64,000 bases of DNA. Origin: Vermamoeba vermiformis. Its lineage: Eukaryota. The stretch spans positions 62,001 to 126,000 of the forward strand of contig JBEWZL010000121.1 in the NCBI GenBank assembly GCA_045837725.1, read 5' to 3'. The notes below the pieces were generated by a model. It ran no database searches, had not been told where the DNA came from, and worked only from the letters and a program-made list of their open reading frames with translations. A program made the translations under genes and the position numbers. This document shows, piece by piece, positions 5,794 through 64,000 of this stretch. Every line of letters starts with the position of its first letter. Position 1 is the stretch's first letter.

Positions 5794-7937
5794 TTAATGC
5801 TCGAGAAATGCATTGACGTAGTCTTGTACTTCGCTGCACTCTTTCATCGCAGGGCTAAATAAATAATCAGCGTTAGCCACATTTTGAGTTTGTCAAAGTC
5901 TAGACTGACGTACCATTCACTAATAGCCTCTTTGTACTGGTTCAAATCGACAGTGAATTCTTCCACGAAATTTCGTATCATTTGCAGATCACGTGACTCA
6001 ACGACGTAATAAAGCACGTTGCTAAAGTCAAAGTCTTGCAGTAACTTTTTCACCTCTTCTTGCGTCTCTTTTGACGCCTTGTAATATAGATCATGCAAAT
6101 AAGCACGATAATGTTGAGGATTTGCGCGCATTATTTCATAAATTGTTGCTGCTGCTAATTTTGTCGGGCTTCGCAATGTCACGTACGCAACAACTGGATG
6201 TGACACGCCAAAAGCTTCGTGCATGATTTCTCCTTTCTTTCCCTATACAATAATGATGCTATTAGCTTAAGTAGTTTACTGTTACAAGATTAGCTAATTC
6301 AGCGAATGTGGATCTGATCCGTTTTTTGTTTCGGTTTCAAGTACCACAGTTTTTGAAATAACTTTACGAATTTTGAAAATTACGATTATTTTTTGAATGT
6401 TATTGTGTACCTTTGTTGCACAAGTCAATCCCTGGGATATCAAATAGTCCAATATCGCTTTGCGGTTATGTACATCCAGTGCCAGGAAAGTTTCGTTATC
6501 CAAAAAGAACGGGAAATAGTCAGGCAAATAAATAGTCATGTGCATCTTTTTGTGAGTTTCTATCGTTCTTGTATAAAATTGCAATTCTTTTTCGAGGGAA
6601 GTTATTCCGCTGTCAATCAGGAATTTGATAGTGTCAAATGCTTCTCGGTAACAAGCATAGGCGAATGGCGTCTAAATAAATTAAGTAATTATATATATAA
6701 TATAAATTATAACTTTTAAAAAGAATTCGAAATAATTGGACTGAATTACGTAGGAATTGCAAAACTTAAACTTACGTAGTGGAGAGCTCTATAGTATTCA
6801 TAAGGCAATCCATTCTTATAATAAGCTTCTTTAAACAATTCGAGGTGCGGAACTAAAACGAACAGATCTCGCACGACCAATTCAATCCCGAACTTTTTCT
6901 CCATATAAGTTTCTAGAGTGGTGAATGTTTGCATCAATTCTTGAACATCCTTTTGCCCTATATTGTTCGAGAAGCAGAGAATCAGTTTCTAAAAAAGGAA
7001 ATTAGTAAAAACTTGTCAACAGATCCGCGATAGAAATTTGTCGTGCCTTTAGTTTCGGAAGTCCTTTTGGTACGTTATCCAAAAAAGTATATATACTGTC
7101 ACTATTGTATTCGCAAGTAGTACGTAATATCTCTGTATTTTCACGGGCGAATTCGAAGGACCAGTCTGGAGGATAAACCATAACCGGGAACACCAGGGGT
7201 ATGCTGAATATTCTCACTTTTGGAAATTTCTTGCGGAATGTTACAATAGGGAATTGCCACCAATTTAGGTCTATAAAAATGGGTTGGTTTTTTAGATCCG
7301 CATCTAATAAAAAAAATAAAATGAACTTACAAACGATGGAGAGTTGTTCGATATCAAAAGGCTCCGACTCAGTCAAAATCAATTGCTCTACAGCGAGACT
7401 TAATGTAAGCCATTTTAGTTGTTTTGAAGCGGCTATGACAGCCGGCCAAGGTCTGTCAGTGGTGCACGCAGCTTCGAAGCAATATACTTCGAGGCCAGTG
7501 ACTTGATACGTTGAAACTATATTATGGATCATGCTCGTTTTGGTGCGATGTCCGAGTTTGAGCGTAGTATCGTTGATTATAAAACACTTGTTTTGAGATT
7601 GGGACGTTTGACATAAACGTCTAAAAAGTACAATTAAAATCCAAAAAATCGTGAAAATAATCCATTAAATTAACGTAGTATTAAACTGATGAGAGATAGT
7701 TCTTAACAGGATAACATAATTATTGATTTAATTTTAGATCGCAAAATCAGCCTCCTACAGTAGTATGAAGGGCCAACAAAGACGTAAAAAATATTAATAT
7801 ATTTGATACATTTATATAATTGATATAACTTACTTCCATTCCTTGCATACGAGCACTACAGAATTAAGCCAATCCACAAACGGAACTCGATCCAAAATCT
7901 CTTGGATGAGTTCACTTGGTAGGCACTTGAGGTCCAT
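5794..7937 (-). CDS. F-box protein with LRR-like middle and short ankyrin-like C-terminus (paralog of 13282-17801)
   Basis: First exon MDLKCLPSELIQEILDRVPFVDWLNSVVLVCKEWK is a typical F-box. VRDLFVLVPHLELFKEAYYKNGLPYEYY matches CRDLYLLVHNINLFAKSFQLQDLPYSYY in the paralog. Stop TAA at 5794-5796. Confidence 0.75.
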
Positions 7938-18032: not shown

Positions 18033-19867
18033 TTAATCAAACAAACTGTCATTTGCAGATGATTGACTGGCGAGGTACTCGTCAATGTTCAATTTGCTGA
18101 GATCCACCGTGTCTTTTTTGTTCGTTGACACCATATCAAACAGATCATCGCCAGTATTAACCTTCTTATTAGAACTAGTACTTGGTTTTGTGCCGAACAA
18201 GTCATCGTCATCGTCGGCAATTGTAACTGTCACTTTGGCAGCTGGTTTGGGCTGTTCTTTTTGAACTACTGGTTTCTTTTGTGGCACTTCAGTACTGCGA
18301 AAAAAAACAATTAGCAAGTCAATCTTGGTTGACACGTGAAAAATATCAAGTGACACGTGTCAACTTTTGACAGTAAAAAAACAACGTTATCGATTTAGTC
18401 TTACATTTCAAGTAATGATCGATCGATAGTAATATCATCTTGGAATACCGATTTCTTGCTGCCAAAAAGACTATCTTCCGTAAGCTAAATAATTATTATT
18501 GCCACGTTAGAATTAGATCTGATAACAACCCTAGTATTCCTTACCATTTCCTTTTTAGGCTGTTCTACTTCAATAACTTGCGGCTCTGGCACTTGAATAC
18601 CTTCGTGTAATTTAGTTCTGCAGAATCAGAGTTAATCATTGCGAAAATTTTCGTCGTTCACTGAAAGAGGATCAGATCTACTTACGAAATCTCGAGGCGA
18701 GATCTTGAATCCTTGAACACGCCAGGTGTAGATTGAGTAGTGTTATTATTAGTGGTTGGTTTATCTTCTTTCGGTTTCTCTTCAGTTTTTTGCGTTGACT
18801 GTGGATTTGGTTCGTCGTTCGCTTTTTCAATTTGCGCGGGCTTTTTTTCAGTAACAGGAGCTATTGTTGGTTTCGTTGTTTTTTCTTCGATTTTTTTAAC
18901 TGGCTGTTCTTCGACTTTTGGTTTAGGAACATCTTTTGGTTTTTCCGACTCGGGCGCCTTTTGAACTGGCACAGGCTTTTCCTCTTTTGGTAATGACGGT
19001 GAAATTTCATTTGCGGGCTGCTCGGTGGCAATTGGGGTGACTTTTGTTTCTTGAACAGGGCTGGCAGTCTTTGCGGGAATTTTTTTCTCTTCTTCGGCGA
19101 CTTGAACTTTGACAGGCGTGTCAGTGGTCGGTTGTGGCTTAGTGTTCTTGCTCAACGGATTATTTGAGAATAAAAAGTCCGAATCCTCTTCGTCATCGTC
19201 AAAAAGGGAGGATTTTTTCGGAGTATTTTGAACGGGCTTTTGATCTCGTTCAGATCCGATTGGAACGCCATCAAGAACTTTCAAAGTCTTAATTCCTTCG
19301 ATCATATATGCTCTGTAGCCTGCTTCATTGCACACTACAATAATTAACGTTAAAAAAATAGTTCGACAAAGGATCAGATCCGATCATGAAACTAATTGGC
19401 CTCTTAATTGCCAGGCTATTGTTAAATGTTGTTAATAATATTATGAACGTACCTGGATTACCGCGTAAATCCAATTCTTCCAATGCTGGAGCTTGAAATA
19501 AGCCTTCAATATTCCGCTTGAACCGCATCCGATTATTGCTATTTTTAAATAAATTAATTAACGCTGCATATTATTTATTAACGTGATGATTTAATATTTT
19601 GACCATGTACATACCTTAAATCTAATTTTTTCAATTTTGCGAATTTAGCAAAAGATCCTACTTCATCAATTTGCTTGTTAGACAATGTGACCTCCTCTAA
19701 AGCAGCTGGATCACCTGGCTAATATTATTAATTAATTATTGCGCCTGTACTAACAATTAATTTGGTCGAAGAAATGTGATAAAATCTCGATCGAGCTTGA
19801 TCGGCATTATTTAATTTACCTTGCCAATTTTACTATTAATAGTCTCGAAAGTAAGTTTATTGACCAT
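18033..19867 (-). CDS. Short SDS22/U2A'-type LRR and LRR-cap domain followed by a long P/K/E-rich disordered tail with acidic LF motifs
   Basis: LEEVTLSNKQI...LKKLDLSNNRM...LEELDLRGNPVCNEAGYRAYMIEGIKTLKVLDG (LRR plus cap). The tail contains SLFDDDEE, DDDDDLFG and GDDLFD, and ends NIDEYLASQSSANDSLFD*. Confidence 0.77.
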
Positions 19868-25551: not shown

Positions 25552-26757
25552 TTATAATACAATATTCGCTGCCTCACGAAGCTGATCCATGACAGTGAGC
25601 GCTCTCAGATACGATTCTTTGTACTGTTCACGGCCTATCACGAGTTCAAGCACGGAGTGAAAATCACCGTAGTGCAATCGCTCTTCTTCTTCTAGACTAA
25701 AGTTGTTATAATTCACTGCAATTATCTGTCAATATAATAATTAAGATCAGATTGGAGATTACTGGAGATTCTACGTCAATTTTCCGTAATTTCCAAATTA
25801 GGAAATTTAAATAAAAGTTCGGTTTAGGACTTACGTGCCAGTTCTTAGTCTCGCTATTGTACACCATAAATCTCTCACTAAAATATCTCATTTTTGCAGG
25901 TCTATATTCATTTTCAATAGGAGCTCTTCGAACGGCAAGTCCTCGTCTTGTTTGTGTTCGTGGATGCGGCACCGGTGGCTTTGGTGCCCGAACGACTTTT
26001 GATATTCTGATTGGTGGCTGCATCTCCACGCGAAATTTCACCGGAATTGTGGACTGACCAATCGCAATGAACTCTACGGCCACATGTTTCGTGTCAAAAT
26101 CGTCTTCTTGTCGTGGATCGGTAACTGCATCCGGATACATTTCTCTATTTTCCTCCTTGATAGTATCTAAATTATCATATTTAACTTCTTGACCGTCGTT
26201 ATCAATTTTGTAGAACGAGATCCGTGCCGGATTCAGATTTGGAAAGAGTAAAGGCTTAATTGGGGATACATGCACTTCATCGCCTAATTGTGATCGTAAT
26301 TTGTATCTAATTTTCCAAGAATATTCGTGCCAATAGTTAAACAGGACGAATCTTCTTGCACTTATGGGGATCGAGTCTGGGGTAAGACACATTAGATTTA
26401 AATTAGCCAAAATTAACTATAATACCTTCTAAAATCGCCAAAGTATTTTTCGGAGGGCTTTTGACTTGATCAATTTTCCACCGCTGAACGTAGAGACGCA
26501 TCCACTCAGAATCTGAAAAAAGATCTTGCACCGGCGTCGCAGAAATTATAAATAAAGCTAATTCTTTCGCTTCCGAATATCCAATAATTATTTTCAAAAT
26601 ATCTGTCGGCAATTCTACTATTTTTTGTTCCAGATCAAGTTGATCATCTGCCTTAAATCGTTTTAAATTGATTCTATCCTCATCCTGCTGTATACAAATT
26701 AATACGACGCTACAATTAGATTGAAAATCTTACTTGGTCTTCAAATCTTCTCTTCAT
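25552..26757 (-). CDS. F-box protein sharing the C-terminal domain of the 21615 and 39250 genes but lacking the propeller region
   Basis: MKRRFEDQ-...IVELPTDILKIIIGYSEAKELALFIISATPVQDLFSDSEWMRLY (F-box-like), then EYRPAKMRYFSERFMVYNSETKNW; stop TAA at 25552-25554. Confidence 0.65.
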
Positions 26758-33487: not shown

Positions 33488-34983
33488 TTATAGGGCAATA
33501 GCGAAACCAATCAAGCCAACGATTGAAGCAAAGACTTGCGAGGCGCTCGAAACAGCTTTAGATCCGGGCATCTCAGGCACAGCTATCTCAGCAGAGACAA
33601 CGCATCCTTCAACATCAGTAACAGTTACTGTAGCTTTACCACCGAATGCAGAGTTCAAATCACCGCCAGAACTGAACTTCCAGGTGTAATTATAAGATCC
33701 ATAGCCGCCAGTCGTTTTGACACTCGGCAAAGTTCCGCTGTTATCAATAGTGAGGGATAAATTTGTTGAAGGCAATTTAAAGTTAAAACTAGTGCTGCGA
33801 GCGGCACAATCGGAGATTTGTCGTTGATACGAGATCTGACTTTCGCCATTCACAACGTCAGCCGTGAATTGCTGATTGGACAATGTAACAGGACTGCCGT
33901 TGAACGTGATTGAAATGTCGCCCTGAGCAATGAACGTGATGGCCATAGGTGTCGTGCAGTAAGTCGTCTGCGGATCCACAACTTGAAATTGTACGGCGCA
34001 CATGCCCCAATTAACGATGCTTTCCAAGGGCGTGGTGATGTTCGCGAAGATTTCGTCGGGCAAAAAGTTGATCTGACGAGCACCGTCGAGAGCGTCACTG
34101 AGGTTTCCCCATTGACCGAGAACAACCATGATGGTTCTAGCCTCACCAGCAGGAATAACGACGTCGTAATAAGTAAATGAAGTGTCGTCATTTCCGGTCA
34201 CAAAATCACCGGGCAATTTTGTAGGGAGGATTTGCGCGCCATAGCTAGCAGCGTTCACTGAAAATGGTGTGTCATCAACGCCGTTTGCACCATCAGAGCT
34301 GAAAATAAAATTAACCCAAGTTATTAAATATGATCATGAATCAAAATAAGAAATTATTAAGTAACTTACCTGACCCAGTAGTATTCGTTCAATTCATGAA
34401 ATTGAGTGCCCTCATCGGATCCGTAGTTTCCGCTGTAAGTCAATGAGATATTTACTGCGGATGTTCCAAAGTTACGCAGCGTATCGAGGACACGAATCCA
34501 CGTGCCTAAAATAGTACATTAGTATGACGTTAGAAAAATATTGTGAACAGGGAATTAATGTTACGAACAAAAAGAACCGAATGAATAATTGAATAATAAT
34601 TAGCTTTTCTTACTTGAACGAGGAGCGTAAAACTCGCGGAAGATCTGAATCGTGTCGGTGATATTGTAGGTGTAGCTAGCATATGAAGTCGAGTTCATAT
34701 CAGTCGTGCCAACATCGCAGTAGTAATCTACGGGAGATCCGTAAAAGTTGCTCATAGAATAGGTAACGTTATCGATGATCAAATCCAAGTAGAAGTAGTC
34801 GTCAAAAGTGTCGCTAGTACCGTCGCCAAAGTAATAGCCTCGCCAGTCCCAAGATTGCTCGCCATAGCCACCGCTCATGCCGTAGCCGTTGTAAAAATCG
34901 AAGGAATAGCTGTCGCAACTAGATTGTGATTGACAAGTGGCCAATGCTATAAAGCAAGCGAAGATTAATGCTTTAAATAGCAT
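33488..34983 (-). CDS. Secreted, probably GPI-anchored beta-rich surface glycoprotein with a SprB-repeat-like C-terminal module
   Basis: Signal peptide MLFKALIFACFIALATC; three exons; many NxS/T sites; TTGGYGSYNYTW...TVTVTDVEGC; hydrophobic C-terminus SSASQVFASIVGLIGFAIAL*. Confidence 0.8.
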
Positions 34984-51619: not shown

Positions 51620-54600
51620 ATGTCGAATAGCACTGCGCCTATTGCTGCTCCAATTGCAGCACCGAGTGGCGGCTCAACTTTTCTGGATGGCGGCTACATC
51701 TTCAACTCTGCGATTTCTCTGTTGCTAGTCCAGATCATCATCATTACTACTCTCTCTAGAGGCCTCGGGTTCGCTATTGGGTAAGCGGCTTGATTGATTT
51801 TTGATTCTATTGCATCCGACCGTTGCATATCCAATTGTTTCTCGCTTATTCTCACTAAAAACGACCTATTTTTTTGCGAATATATATCTACTAAATACCC
51901 GGAACCATCCCTAGCGACGGCGGCGCTAACAGAAATTCTTGATCTTTTGATCAAAAAGTTTCATCCGCATCTGTGCTAACCGTAATACTCTTTAGCAAAA
52001 TAAAAGAGCCTATGGTCGTCGCTGAAATGCTTGCAGGCATTATCTTGGGCCCTACAGTACTTGGTCGCATCCCTGGCTTTTCAGATACGCTCTTCCCTAA
52101 ATCATCCCAACCACTTCTCGGGTATACTGCTCTAATTAAAATCAAGCTAATATACTAACATCATATATTTAAGCATCGTCGCTAACTTGGGTCTGATTTT
52201 GTTCATGTTCGTCGTTGGCTTGGAGATCGACTTCAAGGAGTTCAAAAGTACGTCAGATGCGCCAGAAGTTACGAGATTTTAATTAATTTTATTTATAGCA
52301 CAAGCAAAGTCATCGCTCATTGCGTCAGTATGTGGCGTAATCGTGCCATTTGTCTGCGCAGTTCCGTTGATCTTCTTGCTCTACACTCCCGATCTGGTCG
52401 ACCAGAATGTGAGCATTGGTATATTCTACTTATTCCTTAGTGTCGTCATGGGTATCAGTGCCTTGCCGGTATTGGCGCGAATCCTTTCCGAGTATCATTT
52501 CTTGGGCAGCCCGATCGGTGTTTTTACGATGTCTGCTACTGCCTTCGACGACTTGCTTGCTTGGCCTTTATTAGCCCTGGCGATTGCCCTTACTGAAGCT
52601 ACGAATGCCATCAGTATTCTCTACATTTTCATCTGCATGGGTGGTTTGGTCGTTTTGCTCATCTTCCCCGTCAGACTCTTTTTCAAATGGCTCGCTAAGC
52701 GAACTCGTCATAGAGAGAACTTGTCGCAGTTCACCCTGCTTATTATCTTGTTGGTAGCGTTCACTATCGCATGGTAAGCGAAGGACACAAGAGCCGCATC
52801 CGAGTGATTCAAATTGAAATTAATTTTATCAATAATAGGTTTTGCGAAGTAATCGGTCTCACTGGATTGATTGGTGCCTTTTCCGTCGGTTTATTTGTCC
52901 CTAGAGAGAACAATATCCCTGTAAGTTGCAATTTAATTTTGACAGATCGAGCTCACGTGATCCGTTAGAAATTTCCTCTCTTTTCTGGTTTTGCGCTGCG
53001 TAGCTCACAAAATCCACTACGCAATTTCTAATCTTATATTTATAGAGCCAAATTAGTGAGCGGATTGAAGATCTGATCGTTATCGTGTTCATGCCTTTGT
53101 ATTTCACTTTGTCCGGTCTTAAAACTCAATTCGCGCTCTTGGATAACGGTAAAATAGACAAGATCTCACTAAATATAGAGCTGACATGATATATTTAGGC
53201 ACTTTATGGGGCTACACGATCCTTATTATCGTCGTTACGTTGATCTCAAAAATTGTAGGCTGCTCGATCCCGACTCGCTACTTGGGAAAATTCTCTTGGA
53301 CCGAGTCCCTCATCTTCGGCGTATTAATGAACACTAAGGGCCTCGTCGCTTTGATTTCACTCAACTTGGATTCTGGTCTCATTTCTCAGAAATTCTTCGC
53401 TATGTTGATTATTATGGTCTTAGTCAACACTATGATTCCTTGCCCGACCGTAGCGTTGATTTATCGCATTTCCAAGAAAAAATCGCCTGAACAACTCGAA
53501 GCAGAGAAGAAAGAGGCTGGGTAAGAAAAACAACGAACAGATCAAGCGATATTGTATTAATTTGTATTGTTTAGACCGTCATTGAAGGTTATGGCTGCTA
53601 TTAACCATCACTTGAGTGCTCCTTATATGGTCTCGTTGGCTAAGTACGATGAACAACTTTTCATTTTTTTGGATCCGATCCGGATGCTGACTTTTGGTAC
53701 CTTAGGACATTATCGTTGAAGCAGAAACCGCTTGAATTGACCTTCATTCGTTTGCTCGAGTCAAGCAGTCGTCCTTCAGAGATTATGGCAGGCTGGTCGA
53801 AGAAGTCTGAGCGCAAAGATGACGTCATAATCTGTGCCTCTCAACGAGCTAAACTTTTGGGCATTAACGTCAAAGAGGTAAGCCTTAGTTGCACTAAGAC
53901 GTTATATTGGTATTAATGTATCATATAGACGTTGTATTATATGAGCAATGACATCGGTCACGATATTTGCAAAGACTCTCGCAACAAAGAAATGGATTTG
54001 CTTATCGTCGGTTGCCACCACAAAAGAATCCGCGGAGAGGTAATTAAGACCAAAAAATATCAACAATTTACACGCAATTAACACGTATATTTAGACCGTT
54101 GATAAAATCATTGAAGGCAGTTCGGTGAACACTGCGATCTTGCTCGGCAGACAAGATACCTTGGAACTCACTTCTAACATTTTATTCTTGTACCGCGAGA
54201 GTGAACATGATATTTTGGCCCTTAAATTGGCTATGACTATGGCTGAGTCTCAGAACCAACGATTGGTAAGTCAGATCGCATACGTTCGTAGCGGATGTGA
54301 CCTTCAAGTTATCTAACGACGTTCTCTATTAGACTATCTTGCATATTACTAATCCTAAGAAGAGAGAGAACCAGGCCTTCTTGAATATGTTGCTTCAGAA
54401 GACTTACATCGGTAAGTATATCCGTCGCGTACTGGAACTTTTCGATTGATTTTAACACTTTGTGAGTAGAATACAAGCTCGTGGAAACTGAATCCAAGTA
54501 TAAGACCGCTTTGGCTCAAGAACTCAACAGCACACAATACTCTTTCGTCGTTCTTGGCTTGAGCTCCAAGATCGCGCGACGCATCCAAGTTATTAACGAG

Positions 54601-54830: not shown

Positions 54831-57274
54831 TCAATTAGTAGGAAGCAATTCCTTCAACTTCTTGATCTTCTGCTCAATCTTGGCTTTATCTCCGCCTTTC
54901 AGATTTTCAATTAGGGTATTGCTTTGCGTTACAAACTCCTGCTTAATCATTTTGATAACGGCTTTGTACATGTTTTGAAGGTTTTCTACGAGTTCAAAAA
55001 CGAGGTCGTTGACACTTTCTCCAGGAAATTCAGGCAGATAATGTTTGATACTCTTTTTGGCATACTTTTCGAGATGTCGAATGGCCTCGTTTTGTGCGAG
55101 TGATACAAACTGAACGTCAGCTAATGCTTTTGGCTTTTCGACCTCGTTGATCGTTTTTCGTAACGGACTTAACACGTCGCTCGAGATGTTAATGTAGCCT
55201 CGTTTAGGCGAAGAGAACCTTCCTGATCGTCTAATAACAGCGCCTAACACTTGATACCCTCCGCTCTGAAAGTCGTGTTAGTAAAAGCCAGCAAAAAAAT
55301 TGGATTCTTACCCCGCCAAATCGTTTCGGTGAAAACCAGAAGTTTGTGCAAATTGCCTTCCAGTCAGCAGCATTACAGCCATCTAACACTTTTGGAATCG
55401 TTTTAGTGAAGTGCTTTCGGATCTCGCGTATCAGCAACTCAGTCTTGTTTCTACTCTGTTCCAAAACTTGGATCATGTTCTTAATAAGAGCCTCCAATTC
55501 GGTTGCTTTAATAGCAACAATCTCTTCTAAAAAGATCGTGAATCGTTCGTCGCCTTCGTCCAAACCAATGCCCGTCAGTAAGTACGGCATGTCACGAATT
55601 CTTTTTGGTGCATTTGCTTCGTTTTGAAACTGTCCGCAAGCAGATTAATAGATATTACTATTAGGTATCTGGCTTACTTTATTATAGGCTTGTAACCAAG
55701 CCTCGTTGTATGTCTTCCCGTTCTTCATCAATAAATCACCAAAAGTGGCAACGTTCAAAATTCTCGTTGATCGTTTGGATTCCATTGAATTCAATCCGTA
55801 CTTGAATAACTTCCTTTCAATTGTTTTTGCAGTCATATTGTTTCTTTGATTTGACACAAAAATTATCACATCCACCTCGCCAATAATCTTCTCAATCATC
55901 TTGGCTCGATTTGTATTCGTGTCATTCGATCCAGGAAGGTCTATTATAGTCAAATCAGGAAGGTAGAAGCAATCTTCATGCGTGTGCGGAATTTCTGAGG
56001 AGACTGACTCAACGAATTGTCGCTGTTTTTGCAACTCGGCAATAAATTGTTGGTACTCGTCCAAAGAGTCTGTTTCGACGCCTTCCCCGCTATATTTTTC
56101 TTCCAACTCGTCAACGTCGGGTGGTCTATCAATGTACATTAAGTGAGAACTATCTGCATCCAATCGCTCTGCCAAAAGGTTGCCAAAGTAAGATCTGACC
56201 TCGTTTTTAGTTTCTTTCAGTTTGCCGTACTCTTTTATCTCTTCATCGCATTCTTCACGAAGTCTGTCAATTTCTTCTTCTTGGACGAATACAGCAGAGA
56301 GTCTAAATTTACTCGACGTAGTAAAATTGAATTCGTGGATCCATGACGTTTCTAGTTTCAATAGGTAAAAATAATAGACAATAATAATTATACTACTTAC
56401 GTGACCCGCTTTCATCAGATTTTGTGCTGACATTAGGGCCGTAAATCGATTCTACTAGCGTTGATTTGCCTTTACCCACACCACCAAAGAGACCAACTCG
56501 AACTTTCTTCGGGAATCGAGACACGAGGTGATAAAGCGGGAAGTCGAGGCTCTTGTTAAGGTCTTTGAGATTTGCTAGAGTATCGCCGATATTAATGTGC
56601 TCTAATTTAAATTTAAAAATAATTAGAAAATTAGTATTTTGACGAGTTTGACACGTGTCATACTTTTTCTGGTTGCAGGAACAGTTTTCCAAGTGTTATC
56701 TTCGAAGAAAAGGGTAGCCTTAGATACGCCACTTTCAGGCGAAAACGTTTGCGGTGTTGATACAATCGTGACACCGGCGCGGTTAGCCATTTTTTGCAAT
56801 CGTTTTGCAATTGGCTTTATCTCAGAGCAATCGGGAAAGTCCAGAATTTTAGAATAAAACTCCGATTCATTACCGCTCGTGGCTAGAGACACTGCCGCGA
56901 GAAATTCATATTGCGAATGAAGCGGTGTCCATAATTTTTCTTTCTCCTTAACAATAAGATCAGTAATCATATAATTACAGCTGTATTTGTGCTTACTTGA
57001 CTCTGAAATGCAGGGTCCATCATGTCACTGCCAAACAAAGGGGTCAGATGATAGCAAATTGAATTAAGCTTAAATTGTGAGTACCAAATTGCTGCATTAA
57101 TTGAAAGACTATGTACAGGAAATACGTACCTTTGTTACTGAAATTCGTGGTCTTCTGAACGAGACTGAGTTCATGTGTCAATATTTTTTTTGTGTAGAAT
57201 CGAATACCTGTCACTCGTTGAAAAGATCTGCTTTTATTTTACATTAATTAATACATTTAGCATTGATTACAAAC
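54831..57274 (-). CDS. Dynamin-superfamily-like GTPase region (helical linker, G domain, helical tail); separate gene or C-terminal part of the ZZ-CLU gene
   Basis: VRVGLFGGVGKGKSTLVESIYG (G1), DLTIIDLPGSNDTN (G3), VDVIIFVS and VATFGD (G4-like), followed by amphipathic helices. Confidence 0.72.
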
Positions 57275-60200
57275 CTATGCTTCATTTTCCTCGCAATACT
57301 CTTTCTTGTAAGCCTAAATATCAAGAGTAATCAGTACGTTGCAAAAGTATGACACGTGTCAACTAAATTAACTATCTTACCTCAAAGTACGGTAATAAAT
57401 TTGCAGGAATAAGTGATGGATCCATCGACTCAAGGCCCATAAAGCTCTCTTTGATCGCTGTATCGACCCAAGTCCGCGTGAGCGGCCTACACGTTTCAAA
57501 ATCGTCATGTGTCAGCGGGTAGAGTGCATTAAATTTCTCCGAGTTTGCAATGAGGCTTTGCGTGACACCTTCTTTGAAGTAGAATCCCGTGTATTTTTGC
57601 AACGCGGCAAATACTTCAGCTTTGTGGTTCCACGAAGAATCTTGCCGCAGATCCACCGCTAGACTCAACTCTTCAGGCTTAAGTGCTTCAATACCGAACT
57701 TTCTGCTTATAAGAAGCTTTATGTCTCGGGTCCAGTGCATCGCAGAAGCTATATTTAGTGAGTTAGTATTACTTCCAAATTAGTAAAAGTTATGTTTTGG
57801 GCACGTACCGCTCGTGTGACCGAACAAGAGATTGAAATAGGCAATAACTGGTTTGATGTCTTCCGGCGATAGCTCTTTAGACTTGATGGACCGCATTAAC
57901 ACGCGGATCGTTTGTTTTTCCGCTCGTGCAAACATTTCGGCACACACGACGGCGTCGAGTTTAGGGTTCTTTTTCTTATCAATAAATGAACGGACTTTGC
58001 CCAAAAATCGCAAGTTAATTCCTCTCGCGTGCATCTCTCGCTTCAATTGTTCGACGGTGTCCACTTGACAATCTCCCGCGAGAATATCTTCGACAAAGTC
58101 AGGGATGGTCTCTTCTCGCAATCTTTTTGCTGCTGCTACCAAATCCAACTGCAAGCATTTTAATATCATAATAGTCATATCGCTATATTGAATATGTTAC
58201 TAACCTCGTCTTTTTGTTTCTCCATGCCGTCAGTCTGGAACTGCGTGAACGCATCCGAACTCAACGGTATTGAATTTGAAACGACGAATTCTCTTCGGAA
58301 TAAGTTGTATAATTGTTTGCCCTAATAAAGAGTGGTTAAAATTTGCTATACAAGGTAGGGCGTAATATGCATTAAAGAGATCTGGTTGACACGCGTCAAC
58401 GCATTTTTTCACGTGTCATCAAGAATCGTTGTAATTACCTTCAGACCAGCAATGAGCAAGCATACAGCATCACCGTAGATCAGCTTTGGAGCAAAAGGCT
58501 GTAGCGTTGCGATTCAGAACTAATGTCTTTTGGAACTACGGAACCCGTCCTTAGTTAAGGTTCCATGACATATAAAGTTAAACTTTTACGTACGCGCTGA
58601 GGCATGTAAAAGACGAGACCCAATGGGAATTGTTCGTAGTCGAGCGATTCTGTGGGAGGAATGTCCGGGAAGAACCTCTTAATGTCGTACTTCCACGTTC
58701 GTTTGCGGAGTTCAATAGGCTCGATCGAACCAGGCGCACCCCATAAGTGATCGACATCGTCGGCTGGATCTTTTTTAAACACGAGTCCGCTGATTTTATC
58801 CTCTGGTGGGAACGGAGGCAACACTAAAAGTGACTAGTTAGCACGAGACTTTTTTCTACGAATTTGCGAGGCTCGAATGAATAGTTATGCGTTAATATAA
58901 TTAGGGTTTATAATTAAGTACCTCGAGCTGTGTCGATGACTAGAGCCATGCCTGTTTCTTCCATAAGATGGACTTCGAGATCCGCTGAAATTTTTATCGT
59001 TAGTCTTAATACTCAAACGAAAAGGATCGAGTTAATTACAATTTAATATGGCACGTACCAGGTCCATAAATCTTCTTGGGTGGCCTAATGCCGACGTAAT
59101 GAGCCTTCAGATTGGATCTGATTCCGAACTCTTTCATTTTTCTGTTGATTTCTTTATCAATCTTCACGATGGTTTGACCGCCATCAGCGCTGCCGTAAGT
59201 CAGCGTGTGACTTCCAATAGGAGAATAAGGAGTGGCTAAAATGAGTATTTGTTAATACAAGTCACCGAAAGACACGTGAGCTAAAAATGACACCTGTCAC
59301 TTAATTTTTCATGTGTCAAAGTAAAAACATTGATCTGCAAATCAATATAATGCTTATATCTAGAGCAAGTATTCATTCGTGTATGATCGTGGCGATTTGC
59401 GTTTGACACGTGTCAAAGTGTCACTTTTGTAAAGTACGTACCAATCATTCTGAAGCCTCTGTAATCAATCAAGTACATAATAGGAATGTTCAGGCCATCA
59501 ACATGAGAGTGATATATGCACTTTAGGCCTTGAATTTCACGACTGGCTGCTTTAAGGGCAAACGCATCTGATCCGTAAATGTTGTGCGTGTCAACTGCAA
59601 ACTTGAAGAAGACACCACCGTGCAAATACTAACATAATATTAGTATCGTAGTCATAATACAATATTTGTAGTACCTTTTCGCCTCCAGCAACGCCGCCAA
59701 TATCTGTTTATGAAATAAAATTAATAAAATTTGAATTGAATTTTTTTGTAACGTACCAATAGGCTTAATAGTCTTTTGATCGACAGGTAAATAAGCCTCG
59801 TCTATAATCAACTTGACGATATCACAAGCGAAATCTCGAAAATCATCGACAGCTTCTTTGATCGAGGAAATAATTTGAATTCGTTCGAACGGATCTGGAC
59901 AACTGCTCGCACGTTGTTTTAACGTCATTAAATGCGTGTGCCAATCAGTAATCGTGTTCAAGTCATCGCCTTCATCTAACGAGTCGTCATCTGATGAAGC
60001 TAAACTTGACGAAGTTGTTTTGCTGTCTTTGGATGCAGTACTGCTGTGCAAACTCGAGCCGTCTAAATATAGCAATGTAAATTAAAAATAGCCTTATATA
60101 GGTATTTTACTATTTAAAGTGAATAAAACTGAAATGAAGAAATAAATTTTCAGACTAAAGGGCGAAAATAATTTGTAAGCCCCGTTTATGAAGTCTTATA

Positions 60201-61796
60201 TGACTATAGTTACCTATAACTTGTTCAGGAGGTCCAGCATCACCGTCGACATAATTTGATTGCACTGATGAATTAAGCGAAGCGTTTTTAGCGGATCCGT
60301 TGCTATCGCGCAACGCGACGGCGTGTACAGGCAACATAAACTTGCTTAAACCGGCTAAATTTAACGCAAAATTAGAGCAAAATTAATATTATAACCTTAT
60401 TTAGCAAAATTAAACTTACTGCTTTGTTTTAAATGCGGATGTGGCGTGGCTGGAACTGCTGGTCCGCTGTAATTATTGTTTTGTGCTTGCATACTCGTAG
60501 GTGAATCGTACTTCATATTGCTAATAGAGAATAGTCTCATAGACGATGGCAGAGCGCTTAATTTGAACTTTGAAAGACGGCGCGTGGATGCTAAAAATAG
60601 AGAATGAAATTATAGGCTGTTTAAATAAGGCAATAAATAGCTAAATATTGGCTCAAATTATATTAATATGCTTACGCAGGCTTTGTTTCTGGTACACTGA
60701 GTTTTGGCGCGCAAACTCCATGTCAGATGCGAGCTTCGACATTTTACGGACCATTTTTTTCTTAAATTCAGGGCTTTCTGAGACTTCATCGGAGTCTCTT
60801 AATACTACTGGTGACTTAGGTCGAGTCGAGTTTAATAATTGATCTTGCGGTCGCTTTAACCAAGGCACTTCCTGTCGATTTTTCGCAAAGATTAATAAAC
60901 TTTTTCAATCGCTAAAAATAACCTCAAACCAGATCTAAACGCGCCTAATTAATACAAAATGCGTGCAATAGGGACACTTACCGTTTCAGAGTCCCAATCG
61001 AGCTCGTTGACGTTCGACAAAAGAGATCTGATCTTCAAGAAAACTTTGTCGTGCAGATGCTCGCTTGGATTGAAGTGTTTGAAGCACAAATTATATTCGC
61101 TATCGTCTAGTGATAAGTATCGAACGCCTAATATATTTTTGGTCACTCTGCACTCTCTACAGTCCACATAATGTCGTTCTGATGAACACGGTGTGATTTC
61201 GTCTGCATCCACAAATAAAAAACGTTAATTCCATTCATAACTGATACGAACAGTGTTTATATTGATAAATAAATGATTTTTTACGATAAAAAAGATTAAA
61301 TTGATTCAATTTATCGATTTGGTCAATCAAAAAAAAGATTCTTTTGTTAATTTTTGAGTTAAATAGGTAAAATTCGCTCAAAAATTAATAATTAAAACTA
61401 AGTCTTGCAAAGTGGAGTTATTGTATCGATAAATAACCCAAGATCAAGTACGTGATTTTGAAATTTCCGGGGGAACTCAATATAGTTTCGTCACACAAAC
61501 TTTTAATGAACTCGTTTTGCTATCATTATTAATAAAAGCCTTATGTTATTAATATTCTTATAATTAAAGCGTAATTTACCTTTGACATTTGCAATATTTT
61601 CGGAGTTATTGAGCAATACATCCAATCTGCCAGTAGCGAAGACGTGTTGCACTGGGTGAAATATAAGGGATACCACTTCGCATTCTGAGCAAATTATGAA
61701 TGGGATTGAGCAATGAATGCATTGGAAAACAATTTGTTGCGGATTTAGTTGGTTACCACATCCACAACAAGTTGTCTCGCTGGATTGAGTCGCCAT
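57275..61796 (-). CDS. ZZ-type zinc finger(s) plus CLU (Clueless) domain protein
   Basis: CCGCGNQL...FQCIHCSIPFIICSEC...HPVQHVF (ZZ) and a second, degenerate ZZ. CLU motifs: KTIKPI-DIGGVAGGEK, FFKFAVD, ALKAASREIQGL, LIDYRGFRMI, TLTYGSADGG, VIDTAR-VLPP, EMHARGINLRFLGKVR, EMFARAEKQTIR. Confidence 0.82.
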
Positions 61797-62251
61797 TTAA
61801 TTAAATAATATATATTTTACGCTTTCTTACGTTCGTTGTCGAACGTTTGTGCAATCAACGTGAAACAATGCCGAGCAAAGGAAAACGGAGGGAGAGGAAA
61901 TCACAATAAAATAATTGGTTTTCGTTTAAAATTCATTATCGACGAATCTTCAAGCGACGCGTACTAAAATGAAATTGTTTAGTAATTTGATTTGCGAATC
62001 TGCCACGAGAACTTACATTTTAAATCTGCATGCGTTTTTTGTAACGGCTATATTCCTTGCAAACGACCAGGTCTTGCCTCGAACTGCTCGTGAACTGAGT
62101 ATATATTATGCTTCTATCCTCCTTTTCCGCTAAGGGACTAACTCAGTGTCTCCTTTTTCGAGTCTTTAAAAAAAAAAAAACCGTTTCTCGATTTAATTTT
62201 AAACCTGCTGCGCTACACATCACCTAATCCAATCGTATTATAGCAGCAACA

Positions 62252-64000
62252 ATGGAGAAGAATGGGCTTGAAGTAGACCACAACGTGCCGCACTCCATCT
62301 GGCTTTACCTTCCAACAGAACTGTGGTTTCAAATATTTCAATGGTTAAGAGCTACTCGATATATAGCATTAATAGGCGCATTATCGAAAGGCTTCAGAGA
62401 GTTCATGATAGAGTATTTTAAATCCGTTGGTCCGTGGATGAACAAAAATATGAACGTTGCGATTGTTGGTGCTCCTGCAGTTGGTAAGTTGATTAAACAT
62501 TAATAATATAATAATATCTTTAGTATTATTTGAGTTAAAATTTATTTTTGCGAGCAATTTTAGATCAGCTGATATTTTGCGAATTTTCAAAGAATGCCAA
62601 TTGTACCTTCTAACGCTTATTATAGGAAAAACCACTATGCTTGCTCACCTTTTTCTTCAATCACGCCTAAATAACATCGAGCATCGATTCGCCAATTTCA
62701 TGGCAAAAAACAATAAGCTGCCCGTAACATCGCATTATAATTCGTTCCTTAATGCTCGCAATGCTAAACATCCTATAACATATACGCAACATATTCGACC
62801 TTTTTACTTCGACACTAGTCTGCACCACTTTACCTTTTTTGATAGTCCCGGATGTGCACGACGATTAATCACTGCGTATCGTATTTGCTCTCAAGTAAGC
62901 AATATATTACCACATTATATGATTTAAATGCTTATTTGTACGCAATTATAGGTTAATACCGCTATTTTGGTGCTTCAACGCAAACAAGAGCTCGATCTGG
63001 ACTGGTTAATCAGTGGTGTAACTGCAGTATGGACGTCATTAACGCACTCGCACTTTATTATTGCCGTCAATTATAGCCACGGTATTTTTACTCAACCTAG
63101 TAAGTACTCGCACGAAAAAAAGGATCGTACTAGTACCTTAAAAATTCATAATTTATTTTTCTTTGCTTTGAGCTTAAAAATAGTGTCATTAATATAAGGA
63201 GCGCTAATACGGCCTATATTTAATATTGGAAGGATTATTAATGATAATTTGCTTTAGATTGGGAAGCAGATCAAAAACTACTTTACGAGAAATTGGTTAA
63301 GGCAGTGCCTGCAAAGTTGCTTTCTAATATTAAACTGATTCCGATCAACGCACTTGAAGGGTTTAATGTTTACTCGCCTCATGCCGGCATCGATGACTCG
63401 AACATCTGGTAAGTCGGTTAATCAGCTTCAAAATTCAATTTTATACAGAAATTATTATTTAAGTCCTATACGTCTTAATTTGTGATATATAAATATAGGT
63501 ATAACGGCCCTACATTATATCGAGCATTACATGCTATATGGGAGAAGTTGGAATATCCTGCCGAACGGATCGAGAAGCCGTTTTCGATGACAGTCCTTCG
63601 CCCTATGAAAGTTGGTGGAGTAGGACCCATTATTGCCGGAGCAGTTAATAGTAAGGAGATTAGAATCATATTTGACGTTTAAGCCAAATCTAAAAAATAT
63701 TTCCTTTTTAGGCGGATGTCTCAAACCCGGAATGAAACTTCGCGTTTGCTGCTCTGGTTTCCCAGCGACTCCATTAGTAGTTCATTCTATCCAGCATAAT
63801 GGCAGAAATATGGACGAAGCTAAACCCTCCGATTATATTGGAATTTCATTCACATCCGCTTCAAGAACTCAAATAACCGGCTGGAACATACTCGAAAAAG
63901 TCAAATATGGCATGATAGTGGCCGATAATAATAATCCTCCGAAGAGAGTCAAGTCGTTTACGGCGGCTATTGCTATCGTAAGTAGTCACAAGAATTTCGT
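62252..64000 (+). CDS. F-box fused to a divergent EF-1alpha-like (translational GTPase) protein; runs off the window end
   Basis: WLYLPTELWFQIFQWL (F-box), then NVAIVGAPAVGKTT, FDTSLHHFTFFDSPG, LIPINALEGFNV, WYNGPTL, EKPFSMTV...VGGVGPIIAGAVNSGCLKPGM, VHSIQHN...EAKPSDYIG, KYGMIV...PPKRVKSFTAAI. These are colinear with EF-1alpha domains I-III. Confidence 0.82.

What the first reader, a model, noticed from the sequence alone, without database searches (positions are those of the whole stretch)
62252..64000. F-box fused to a degenerate EF-1alpha
Seen: the F-box and the start of the G domain are in the same exon, so the fusion is not a modelling artefact. G1 GHVDSGKST has become GAPAVGKTT, the switch-I RGITI motif has become HPITY, G3 is DSPG and G4 NKMD has become NYSH. 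Domains II-III remain recognisable. Inference: it is not a working elongation factor. It may be an SCF receptor that mimics eEF1A to bind ribosomes, eEF1A partners or eEF1A-targeting pathogen effectors.
Basis: partly seen in the sequence, partly recalled or inferred. Interest (0 to 1): 0.75.

Follow-up and report, generated by a model that had tools for sequence, protein, structure and literature searches.

The report
F-box-like motif on dead EF-1alpha paralogue
A real, conserved gene of an unidentified AT-rich eukaryote encodes a protein descended from translation elongation factor 1-alpha that has lost its catalytic and guanine-recognition residues and carries a probable F-box at its front end, so it may link the ubiquitin machinery to something that normally binds EF-1alpha.

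Summary
Six GT-AG exons (62252-63977, + strand) give 406 residues without a stop, and the gene runs off the window at a GTAAGT donor. Exon 1 alone carries both the F-box-like motif and the first strand and P-loop start of the G domain.

- **EF-1alpha homology:** the spliced protein scores 82-85 bits against an archaeal EF-1alpha profile; shuffles reach 3.3 bits at most.
- **G domain:** the P-loop core, a switch-I Thr and DxPG are kept. The catalytic His (now Cys), the switch-II helix and NKxD (now NYSH) are lost.
- **Selection:** a syntenic metagenome orthologue is 64% identical with all five introns in the same places. 11 of 16 exonic variants are synonymous. The gene is therefore under purifying selection.
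- **F-box:** F-box-like is the top Pfam hit in 3 of 3 family members, but always below threshold (15-18 bits against 24.3).
- **Domain III:** it is not in the window and is not significantly recognisable in the orthologue.
- **Expression:** three RNA runs gave 0, 0 and 1 reads, with no control for organism presence.

It is not a working elongation factor. An SCF-receptor role is plausible but inferred. I file it as a new variant of known kinds, of moderate interest.

The parts
62252..62483 (+). Exon 1: start codon, residues 1-77 plus the first base of codon 78. It holds the conserved N-terminus, the F-box-like motif, and the first strand and first half of the P-loop.
   Evidence: Searches give the frame and the GTAAGT donor at 62484. 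P0016 and P0017 carry the same content in one ORF.
62300..62419 (+). F-box-like motif, residues 17-56 (W.YLPxE[LI]WxQIFxxL...L[ST]KGFRxF..EYF).
   Evidence: Pfam F-box-like PF12937 matches residues 17-50 at E 0.0058, 16.8 bits, against a cutoff of 24.3. The orthologue gives E 0.018 and P0017 gives E 0.0018. The Atlas found 8 F-box clusters among 30 hits at score 0.90. The hallmark positions are invariant in 3 of 3 sequences.
62444..63568 (+). Degenerate G domain, residues 65-290, spread over exons 1-5 with introns between.
   Evidence: 36.8 bits against aEF1A profile columns 7-214; shuffle maximum 3.6. Alignment.
62468..62636 (+). G1 / P-loop GAPAVGKTT (residues 73-81), split by intron 1 (62484-62625) inside the Gly78 codon.
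   Evidence: G73, G78, K79 and T81 fall on invariant aEF1A columns; the H-V-D-H residues are lost.
62626..62894 (+). Exon 2: residues 78-167. It holds the P-loop Lys-Thr, the switch-I region and G3.
   Evidence: Four of four variants here are synonymous.
62784..62786 (+). Thr131, on the switch-I Thr column of the aEF1A profile. The orthologue keeps it as T130.
   Evidence: column 72.
62841..62855 (+). G3 DSPGC (residues 150-154). D, P and G are kept; the catalytic His position is Cys, as in the orthologue (DTPGC).
   Evidence: columns 91-95.
62952..63099 (+). Exon 3: residues 168-215 plus one base.
   Evidence: The orthologue's exon has the same length, 148 nt.
63069..63080 (+). G4 position NYSH (residues 207-210; NYNR in the orthologue). 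N is kept; K and D are lost.
   Evidence: columns 146-149.
63258..63408 (+). Exon 4: residues 216-267 (part). It holds the G5 region PINALEG and is the most conserved stretch (80% identity to the orthologue over residues 216-290).
63499..63650 (+). Exon 5: the end of the G domain and the first strands of domain II.
   Evidence: The PDB profile search has aEF1A 3wy9 as best hit at E 0.014, positions 198-242. NCBIfam EF-1_alpha gives E 0.04.
63712..63977 (+). Exon 6: the rest of domain II (residues 318-406).
   Evidence: NCBIfam TIGR00483 EF-1_alpha: E 2.8e-05, columns 252-326. PDB top 3 hits are EF1A. In the profile search, 10 of 11 hits are EF1A family. The Atlas finds GTP_EFTU_D2 clusters at 0.93. 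All 18 Foldseek rows listed through rank 21 are eEF1A/aEF1A, best E 0.095. Six relatives were found in the 1.84-billion-protein library.
63978..64000 (+). GTAAGT donor and the first bases of intron 6. The gene continues beyond the window.
   Evidence: All six relatives' ORFs read through the same donor as '..VS'.

Best explanation
This is a functional nuclear gene, restricted to one lineage, for a protein of about 540 residues (406 are in the window).

**Architecture.** The protein has a short conserved N-terminus with an F-box-like helix motif (residues about 17-56). About eight residues later comes a complete but catalytically disabled EF-1alpha-type body: a G domain (65-290), the domain II barrel (291-406), and in the orthologue a tail the size of domain III.

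**State of the G domain.** It keeps the residues that hold phosphates and Mg (GxxxxGKT, a switch-I Thr, DxxG). It has lost the hydrolysis His, the switch-II helix and the guanine-specifying NKxD. It can therefore at most hold a nucleotide as a fixed cofactor. It cannot cycle like eEF1A or deliver aa-tRNA.

**Most likely mechanism (inferred).** The F-box-like motif docks on Skp1. The EF1A-shaped body then serves as the substrate- or site-recognition module of an SCF-type ligase, or of another Skp1 complex. Its target would be a partner of EF1-family proteins, or a newly evolved target.

**Shown:** the gene model, EF1A-family homology, the motif states, the conserved fusion, and purifying selection.
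**Inferred:** the F-box fold, Skp1 binding, any ubiquitin-ligase role, and the substrate.
For: **Gene model**
- Six exons give 406 codons without a stop.
- Of the 9 indels in run X2's contigs, the only exonic one is 6 nt and in frame. The other 8 lie in introns or upstream.

**Selection**
- 11 of 16 exonic variants are synonymous, against 22% expected (binomial p = 9e-5).
- Against the orthologue, pN is 0.216 and pS is 0.731. In the N-terminal 64 codons alone, pN is 0.224 and pS is 0.859.

**Orthologue**
- L001 and L002 overlap by 580 nt at 100% identity.
- L001 is collinear with window 58437-63998, including the upstream neighbour.
- Its exon lengths in L001 are the same or differ by whole codons, all five introns sit at the same positions, and protein identity is 260 of 405.

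**EF1A homology**
- The spliced protein scores 85.5 and 82.1 bits against aEF1A profiles of 24 and 23 sequences.
- It scores 22.8 bits against SelB-like, 27.4 against CysN-like and 24.3 against EF-Tu profiles. The shuffle maximum is 3.3 in 400 shuffles.
- Independent support comes from NCBIfam EF-1_alpha on exon 6 (E 2.8e-05), PDB searches, the Atlas and Foldseek.

**F-box**
- F-box-like is the top Pfam family in 3 of 3 members at E 0.0058, 0.018 and 0.0018. PF00646 or PRANC follows as a second hit.
- Atlas features: all ten best hits that carry a family are F-box.
- LPxE..IF..L and the later L.K.FR positions are invariant in 3 of 3 sequences.
Against: - Every F-box match is below Pfam's gathering score (15.2-18.4 bits against 24.3).
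- A profile of exon 1 found no F-box protein among PDB sequences. Its 5 hits were OMP decarboxylases and a Bcl-2-like protein.
- The Atlas shared-feature counts are low (135 of 256), which that tool calls a lead only.
- The AlphaFold model of exon 1 is unusable (pLDDT 50.4).
- No Skp1 was available to test binding.
- Three RNA runs with the same species label gave 0, 0 and 1 reads out of about 13 million records read from each. There was no control that the organism is in those runs.
- Domain III is unseen in the window. In the orthologue it is not significant (1.4 bits against a shuffle maximum of 3.6), so the C-terminal model (L002 exons 7-8) rests on ORFs, splice sites and a few matching columns.
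- The tree did not place the family. It sits on a branch of 6.13 changes per column at an open fork.
Confidence: 0.45

Rival explanations
1. It is a remodelled, divergent EF-1alpha of the kind kept at low expression in lineages that translate with EFL. On this view it is retained for an auxiliary, non-translational EF-1alpha role. The conserved N-terminal helices would be a lineage-specific extension that only resembles an F-box and does not bind Skp1.
For: - Kamikawa et al. 2013 (PMC3699394, passages read) describe divergent EF-1alpha genes that co-occur with EFL. Their transcription is heavily suppressed, and the authors propose retained auxiliary roles, including ubiquitin-dependent degradation.
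- Here RNA reads are near zero.
- The F-box match never reaches Pfam's threshold.
- No F-box hit was found in PDB sequences.
Against: - Those divergent EF-1alphas are still alignable in ordinary EF-1alpha phylogenies. This protein keeps only 28 of 97 invariant columns.
- The paper's text has 0 occurrences of 'N-terminal'.
- The N-terminal 64 codons are under purifying selection (pN 0.224 against pS 0.859).
- The conserved positions in the N-terminus are exactly the F-box hallmark positions.
Confidence: 0.3
2. It is a ribosome-rescue or mRNA-surveillance-type EF1-family paralogue, like Hbs1, Ski7 or eRF3. Those proteins carry redeveloped N-terminal regions that recruit partner complexes. This one would bind an eRF1/Pelota-like partner or the ribosome without a GTPase cycle.
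For: [quoted passage not shown] It also argues that Dom34 binding may be ancestral to the EF1 family.
- The architecture here is likewise a new N-terminus on an EF1A-like body.
Against: - In PDB sequence and fold rankings, eEF1A and aEF1A come first and the rescue factors come late. Hbs1 3mca has E 0.83; eRF3 4d61 is at rank 30 and Hbs1 5m1j at rank 46.
- No eukaryotic reference set was available for a proper phylogeny.
- The switch-II and domain-II residues are replaced.
Confidence: 0.12
3. It is a decaying or silent gene copy with no function.
For: - 0, 0 and 1 RNA reads.
- Extreme divergence from EF1A.
- dN is about 3.7 times that of the neighbouring CLU-domain gene (0.255 against 0.069).
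Against: - The reading frame is open across six exons in two species whose synonymous sites are saturated (pS 0.73).
- All introns are conserved.
- 11 of 16 variants are synonymous.
- The only exonic indel is in frame.
- Six further relatives have an intact exon 6.
Confidence: 0.05

Closest known systems
a/eEF1A (translation elongation factor 1-alpha; NCBIfam TIGR00483; Pfam GTP_EFTU + GTP_EFTU_D2 + D3)
   Same: - The G domain and domain II are collinear: window residues 65-406 match profile columns 6-324 at 82-85 bits.
- EF1A is the best PDB, NCBIfam and Foldseek match.
- The P-loop GK[ST], a switch-I Thr, DxPG, the N of NKxD and the W.GPTL motif are kept.
   Different: - A 64-residue N-terminal addition is present.
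- The catalytic His is Cys, the switch-II helix is replaced, NKxD is NYSH/NYNR, and GRVE is GAVN.
- Only 28 of 97 invariant columns are kept.
- Scores are far below the curated equivalog cutoff (22.8 bits on exon 6 against 540 for the whole protein).
F-box proteins (Pfam PF12937 / PF00646), including enzyme-bearing ones such as the F-box helicase Fbh1 (recalled, not fetched)
   Same: - The motif is N-terminal and is followed after a short linker by a folded body that could recognise a target.
- The LPxE..IF..L core is conserved.
   Different: - All matches are sub-threshold, and Skp1 binding is untested.
- I found no F-box protein with an EF1A-type body in the text searches. None is mentioned in the trGTPase survey either ('F-box' occurs 0 times).
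Divergent EF-1alpha of dual-EF (EFL-containing) eukaryotes (Kamikawa et al. 2013, PMC3699394)
   Same: It is an EF-1alpha descendant that has apparently left translation. Expression appears low, and ubiquitin-dependent degradation has been proposed as a retained role.
   Different: This protein is far more divergent and carries an added N-terminal motif. Co-occurrence with EFL could not be checked because no genome is held.
Hbs1 / Ski7 / eRF3 (EF1-family paralogues with new N-terminal regions; Atkinson 2015, PMC4342817)
   Same: The principle is shared: an EF1A-like body plus a lineage-specific N-terminus that recruits another machine.
   Different: These proteins rank below eEF1A and aEF1A in every comparison made here. 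Hbs1 and eRF3 keep working G motifs (recalled).

Membership tests
EF1 family of translational GTPases (a/eEF1A-like) | Significant, collinear profile similarity over the G domain and domain II | tested here: met
   - Whole protein: 82-85 bits.
- G domain: 36.8 bits.
- Domain II: 32.8 bits.
- Shuffles reach at most 3.6 bits.
- Exon 6 against TIGR00483: E 2.8e-05.
EF1 family of translational GTPases (a/eEF1A-like) | Domain III (GTP_EFTU_D3 / GTP-eEF1A_C) | tested here: inconclusive
   - Domain III is not in the window.
- The orthologue's last 137 residues score 1.4 bits against a shuffle maximum of 3.6.
- Pfam and NCBIfam found nothing on L002 exons 7-8.
- In the full-length alignment, columns 375/376 (GD) and 384 (P) match.
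Working eEF1A (equivalog) | G1 GHVDxGKST | tested here: not met
   G1 is GAPAVGKTT. Only the generic GxxxxGK[ST] core remains.
Working eEF1A (equivalog) | Catalytic His after DxPG and the switch-II helix (DF.KNMITG) | tested here: not met
   The sequence is DSPGC followed by ARRLITAYRI. Columns 95-105 are all replaced in both species.
Working eEF1A (equivalog) | G4 NKxD guanine-specificity motif | tested here: not met
   The window has NYSH and the orthologue has NYNR.
F-box proteins (PF12937 / PF00646) | HMM match at or above the Pfam gathering score | tested here: not met
   Scores are 16.8, 15.2 and 18.4 bits against 24.3. F-box-like is nonetheless the top family in 3 of 3 members.
F-box proteins (PF12937 / PF00646) | Conserved LPxE[IL]...IF..L...[VL][CS]K.[WF]R core (consensus recalled) | tested here: met
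   L20, P21, E23, I28, F29, L32, L40, K46, F48 and R49 are invariant in 3 of 3 sequences.
F-box proteins (PF12937 / PF00646) | Binding to Skp1 | not testable with these tools
   No Skp1 sequence of this organism was available, and the exon 1 model is too poor to use (pLDDT 50.4).
Divergent EF-1alpha of dual-EF species | Co-occurrence with an EFL gene; suppressed transcription | tested here: inconclusive
   No genome is held. RNA reads were 0, 0 and 1, without a control for organism presence.
Hbs1 / eRF3 / Ski7 | Phylogenetic placement within those subfamilies | tested here: inconclusive
   No eukaryotic references could be fetched. PDB and Foldseek rankings put eEF1A/aEF1A ahead of Hbs1 and eRF3. 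The tree built with prokaryotic groups was unresolved.

The most novel reading that the evidence does not exclude
The protein is a Skp1/SCF substrate receptor whose recognition module is a nucleotide-locked eEF1A look-alike. It would bring a ubiquitin ligase to a site or partner that normally receives EF1-family factors. Candidates are the ribosomal factor-binding site on stalled ribosomes, an eRF1/Pelota-type tRNA mimic, and eEF1A-binding proteins. That would be an F-box route into translational quality control not described so far.
Probability: 0.15. Interest if true: 0.8.

Novelty: new variant of a known kind. Interest (0 to 1): 0.5.

Why it matters
EF1-family GTPases are among the most conserved proteins known. 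Their known offshoots (EFL, Hbs1, Ski7, eRF3, GTPBP, CysN) all keep a working or near-working G domain.

This offshoot keeps the fold and the phosphate-binding residues but has lost catalysis, the switch-II helix and base specificity. It has also acquired a probable F-box, and it is still under purifying selection in at least two species.

If the F-box is real, this is a domain combination I did not find in the literature searched. It would give a concrete, testable link between an EF-1alpha scaffold and ubiquitin ligation, an auxiliary EF-1alpha role that has long been suggested. If the F-box is not real, it remains an unusually extreme example of EF-1alpha remodelling into a pseudo-GTPase.

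Tried and rejected
- **Own genome.** None is held, so the gene could not be completed and EFL, eEF1A or Skp1 could not be looked for.
- **Word-indexed protein searches with exon 2.** Nothing was found.
- **Exon 2 and exon 4 against PDB.** No EF hits.
- **Viral contigs.** No relative was found.
- **Representative search.** Two of its 8 hits (P0006, P0008, both long tandem-repeat proteins) were judged spurious and left out of alignment A1.
- **AlphaFold of exon 1 with 3 sequences.** pLDDT was 50.4, so no fold search was run.
- **Exon 1 profile against PDB sequences.** 5 hits, none an F-box protein.
- **Tree.**
  - It used 23 aEF1A, 21 SelB-like, 14 CysN-like and 4 EF-Tu-like rows. The group labels are mine, assigned from length and N-terminal context.
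  - 57 of the 119 fetched loci were left out as incomplete or not fitting those rules.
  - Only the quick search finished. The family sits on a 6.13-long branch at an open fork, so placement is unresolved.
- **Sequencing runs with small word shares** (X5-X20, including 'RNA?' rows and one RNA row at 0.09).
- **One partial RNA read in X23.** It ends before the exon 1 donor and runs on as unlike sequence. It is not evidence of splicing.
- **Earlier findings of this scan.** Nothing relevant.
- **Rfam and tRNA scans of the window.** Nothing found.
- **Supplementary files** of PMC3699394 (substitution patterns of divergent EF-1alphas) were not consulted. They may bear on the comparison.

Full report
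**What is there**

The region is eukaryotic nuclear DNA; the window has 38% G+C. From an ATG at 62252 I built six exons:
- 62252-62483
- 62626-62894
- 62952-63099
- 63258-63408
- 63499-63650
- 63712-63977

They are joined by five GTAAG...TAG introns of 142, 57, 158, 90 and 61 nt. The result is 406 codons with no stop. A sixth GTAAGT donor sits at 63978, so the gene leaves the window. The opposite strand holds only short stop-to-stop frames, the longest 87 aa. There is no paralogue elsewhere in the window, and no Rfam family or tRNA.

**The model is right and the gene is under selection**

Contigs of a DNA run of the same organism label (X2) differ from the window at 16 exonic sites. Of these, 11 are synonymous and 5 are not, where 22% synonymous would be expected (binomial p = 9e-5). 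Of the 9 indels in those contigs, 8 lie in introns or upstream. The only exonic one is 6 nt and in frame.

**Relatives**

- A full HMMER scan of 1.84 billion representative proteins with exon 6 gave 8 hits at E <= 0.001. Six are true relatives (36-56% identical to the window's exon 6 in alignment A1). All six are exon-sized ORFs from metagenome contigs that read through the same donor. The other two are long repeat proteins that I set aside.
- One metagenome scan returned two loci, L001 and L002. They overlap by 580 nt at 100% identity.
- L001 is collinear with window 58437-63998, including the upstream neighbour.
- The orthologue has the same five intron positions, exon lengths that are equal or differ by whole codons, and 260 of 405 identical residues.
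- Synonymous sites are saturated (pS 0.73) while pN is 0.216. In the N-terminal 64 codons pN is 0.224 against pS 0.859. The neighbouring CLU-domain gene has dN 0.069 against 0.255 here, so this gene evolves fast but under constraint.

**EF-1alpha homology**

Single exons give only weak matches, but they are consistent and collinear:

| Test | Result |
|---|---|
| Pfam GTP_EFTU_D2, exon 6 | E 0.23 |
| PDB, exon 6 | top three hits are EF1A |
| PDB, exon 6 family profile | 10 of 11 hits at E <= 1 are EF1A family, best 0.021 |
| PDB, exon 5 profile | 5 of 7 hits are EF1A or EF-Tu, best 0.014 |
| NCBIfam EF-1_alpha, exon 6 | E 2.8e-05 |
| NCBIfam EF-1_alpha, exon 5 | E 0.04 |
| Atlas, exon 6 | GTP_EFTU_D2 clusters at 0.93 |
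| Foldseek, exon 6 model (pLDDT 66) | all 18 rows listed through rank 21 are eEF1A/aEF1A, none with E <= 0.001 |

Spliced proteins cannot be sent to the outside tools. I therefore fetched prokaryotic EF1-family genes with a G1 motif pattern and built profiles in the script box.
- The spliced window protein scores 85.5 bits against 24 aEF1A sequences, and 82.1 bits against 23.
- It scores 22.8 bits against SelB-like, 27.4 against CysN-like and 24.3 against EF-Tu profiles.
- 400 shuffles reach at most 3.3 bits.
- The G domain alone scores 36.8 bits, domain II 32.8, and the N-terminal 64 residues -4.6.

**State of the G domain**

*Kept:*
- G73, G78, K79 and T81 of the P-loop
- a Thr on the switch-I column (T131; T130 in the orthologue)
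- D150, P152 and G153
- the N of NKxD
- W267 and G270

*Lost in both species:*
- the H-V-D-H residues of G1
- the R-G of switch I
- the His after DxPG, now Cys
- the whole switch-II helix
- the K and D of NKxD (NYSH in the window, NYNR in the orthologue)
- most invariant domain II residues

In all, 28 of 97 columns invariant in aEF1A are kept.

From established knowledge (recalled), the His and switch II are needed for ribosome-triggered hydrolysis and for the switch, and NKxD sets guanine specificity. The protein is therefore not a working elongation factor, although it may still hold a nucleotide.

**The F-box**

- F-box-like (PF12937) is the top Pfam family for exon 1 of the window (E 0.0058), of the orthologue (E 0.018) and of a third member, P0017 (E 0.0018).
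- PF00646 or PRANC follows as a weaker second hit.
- All matches are below the gathering score.
- The hallmark positions are invariant in all three sequences.
- Atlas features give 8 F-box clusters among 30 hits, with low shared-feature counts.
- Against the F-box reading: a profile of exon 1 finds no F-box protein in PDB sequences, and its AlphaFold model is unusable.

I rate a true F-box at about 60%.

**Expression**

Three RNA runs with the same species label gave 0, 0 and 1 (partial) reads out of about 13 million records read from each. Without a second stretch there is no proof that the organism is in those runs. Expression is unresolved and leans low.

**The C-terminus**

In the orthologue, intron 6 (L002 468-877) contains a complete 5S rRNA gene on the same strand. 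Two further exons (878-1022 and 1113-1375) bring the protein to 543 residues. The full-length alignment runs on to profile column 389, and the invariant GD is recreated at the splice junction. Alone, however, this tail is not significant.

**Mechanism and comparison**

The most economical reading has two parts. The N-terminal F-box-like motif would bind Skp1. The dead EF1A-shaped body would act as a recognition module. Because the aa-tRNA pocket and the switch-II residues are replaced, simple mimicry of eEF1A's classical contacts is not favoured.

The main rival is a remodelled EF-1alpha of the kind found with EFL, which is poorly transcribed and has been proposed to keep auxiliary roles including ubiquitin-dependent degradation (PMC3699394, passages).

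The 2015 survey of trGTPase subfamilies lists no such member and never mentions F-box (PMC4342817, passages). Four text searches found no F-box/EF1A architecture.

A tree with prokaryotic groups could not place the family.

Noticed in passing
L002 661-779 (+), inside intron 6 of the orthologue (L002 468-877): A complete 5S rRNA gene (Rfam RF00001, 105 bits, model positions 1-120 of 120) sits in the intron on the same strand as the host gene. Whether the window's intron 6 has one cannot be seen, because the window ends 23 nt into that intron.
   Followed up: partly
window 58437-61850, minus strand: The upstream, divergently oriented neighbour is a multi-exon gene with a CLU (clustered mitochondria) domain (E 2.2e-14) and a ZZ zinc finger (E 1.4e-4). 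A Cys-rich first ORF lies at 61506-61796. It is syntenic and much better conserved in L001, with dN 0.069.
   Followed up: partly
window 61900-64000: In DNA run X2, several variants carry about half of the summed contig depth (for example 261.6 of 499.5 at 61964 and 348.4 of 718.8 at 63313). This fits two haplotypes or strains about 1.5% apart. One allele has a 6-nt in-frame deletion at 62259, near the N-terminus of the protein.
   Followed up: no
window 55645-56451 (-) and 52283-52777 (+): ORFs with Dynamin_N (E 2.5e-11) and Na_H_Exchanger (E 1.3e-08) domains. Several other long minus-strand ORFs (7002-7664, 18682-19383, 25706-26416, 33488-34333) have no Pfam family at E <= 0.01.
   Followed up: no
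P0004 and P0007 (protein collection): More distant family members of exon 6 (54% and 36% identical to the window in alignment A1) lie on metagenome contigs of 344-471 kb. Their source names them 'GTPase' and 'translation elongation factor EF-1alpha'.
   Followed up: no
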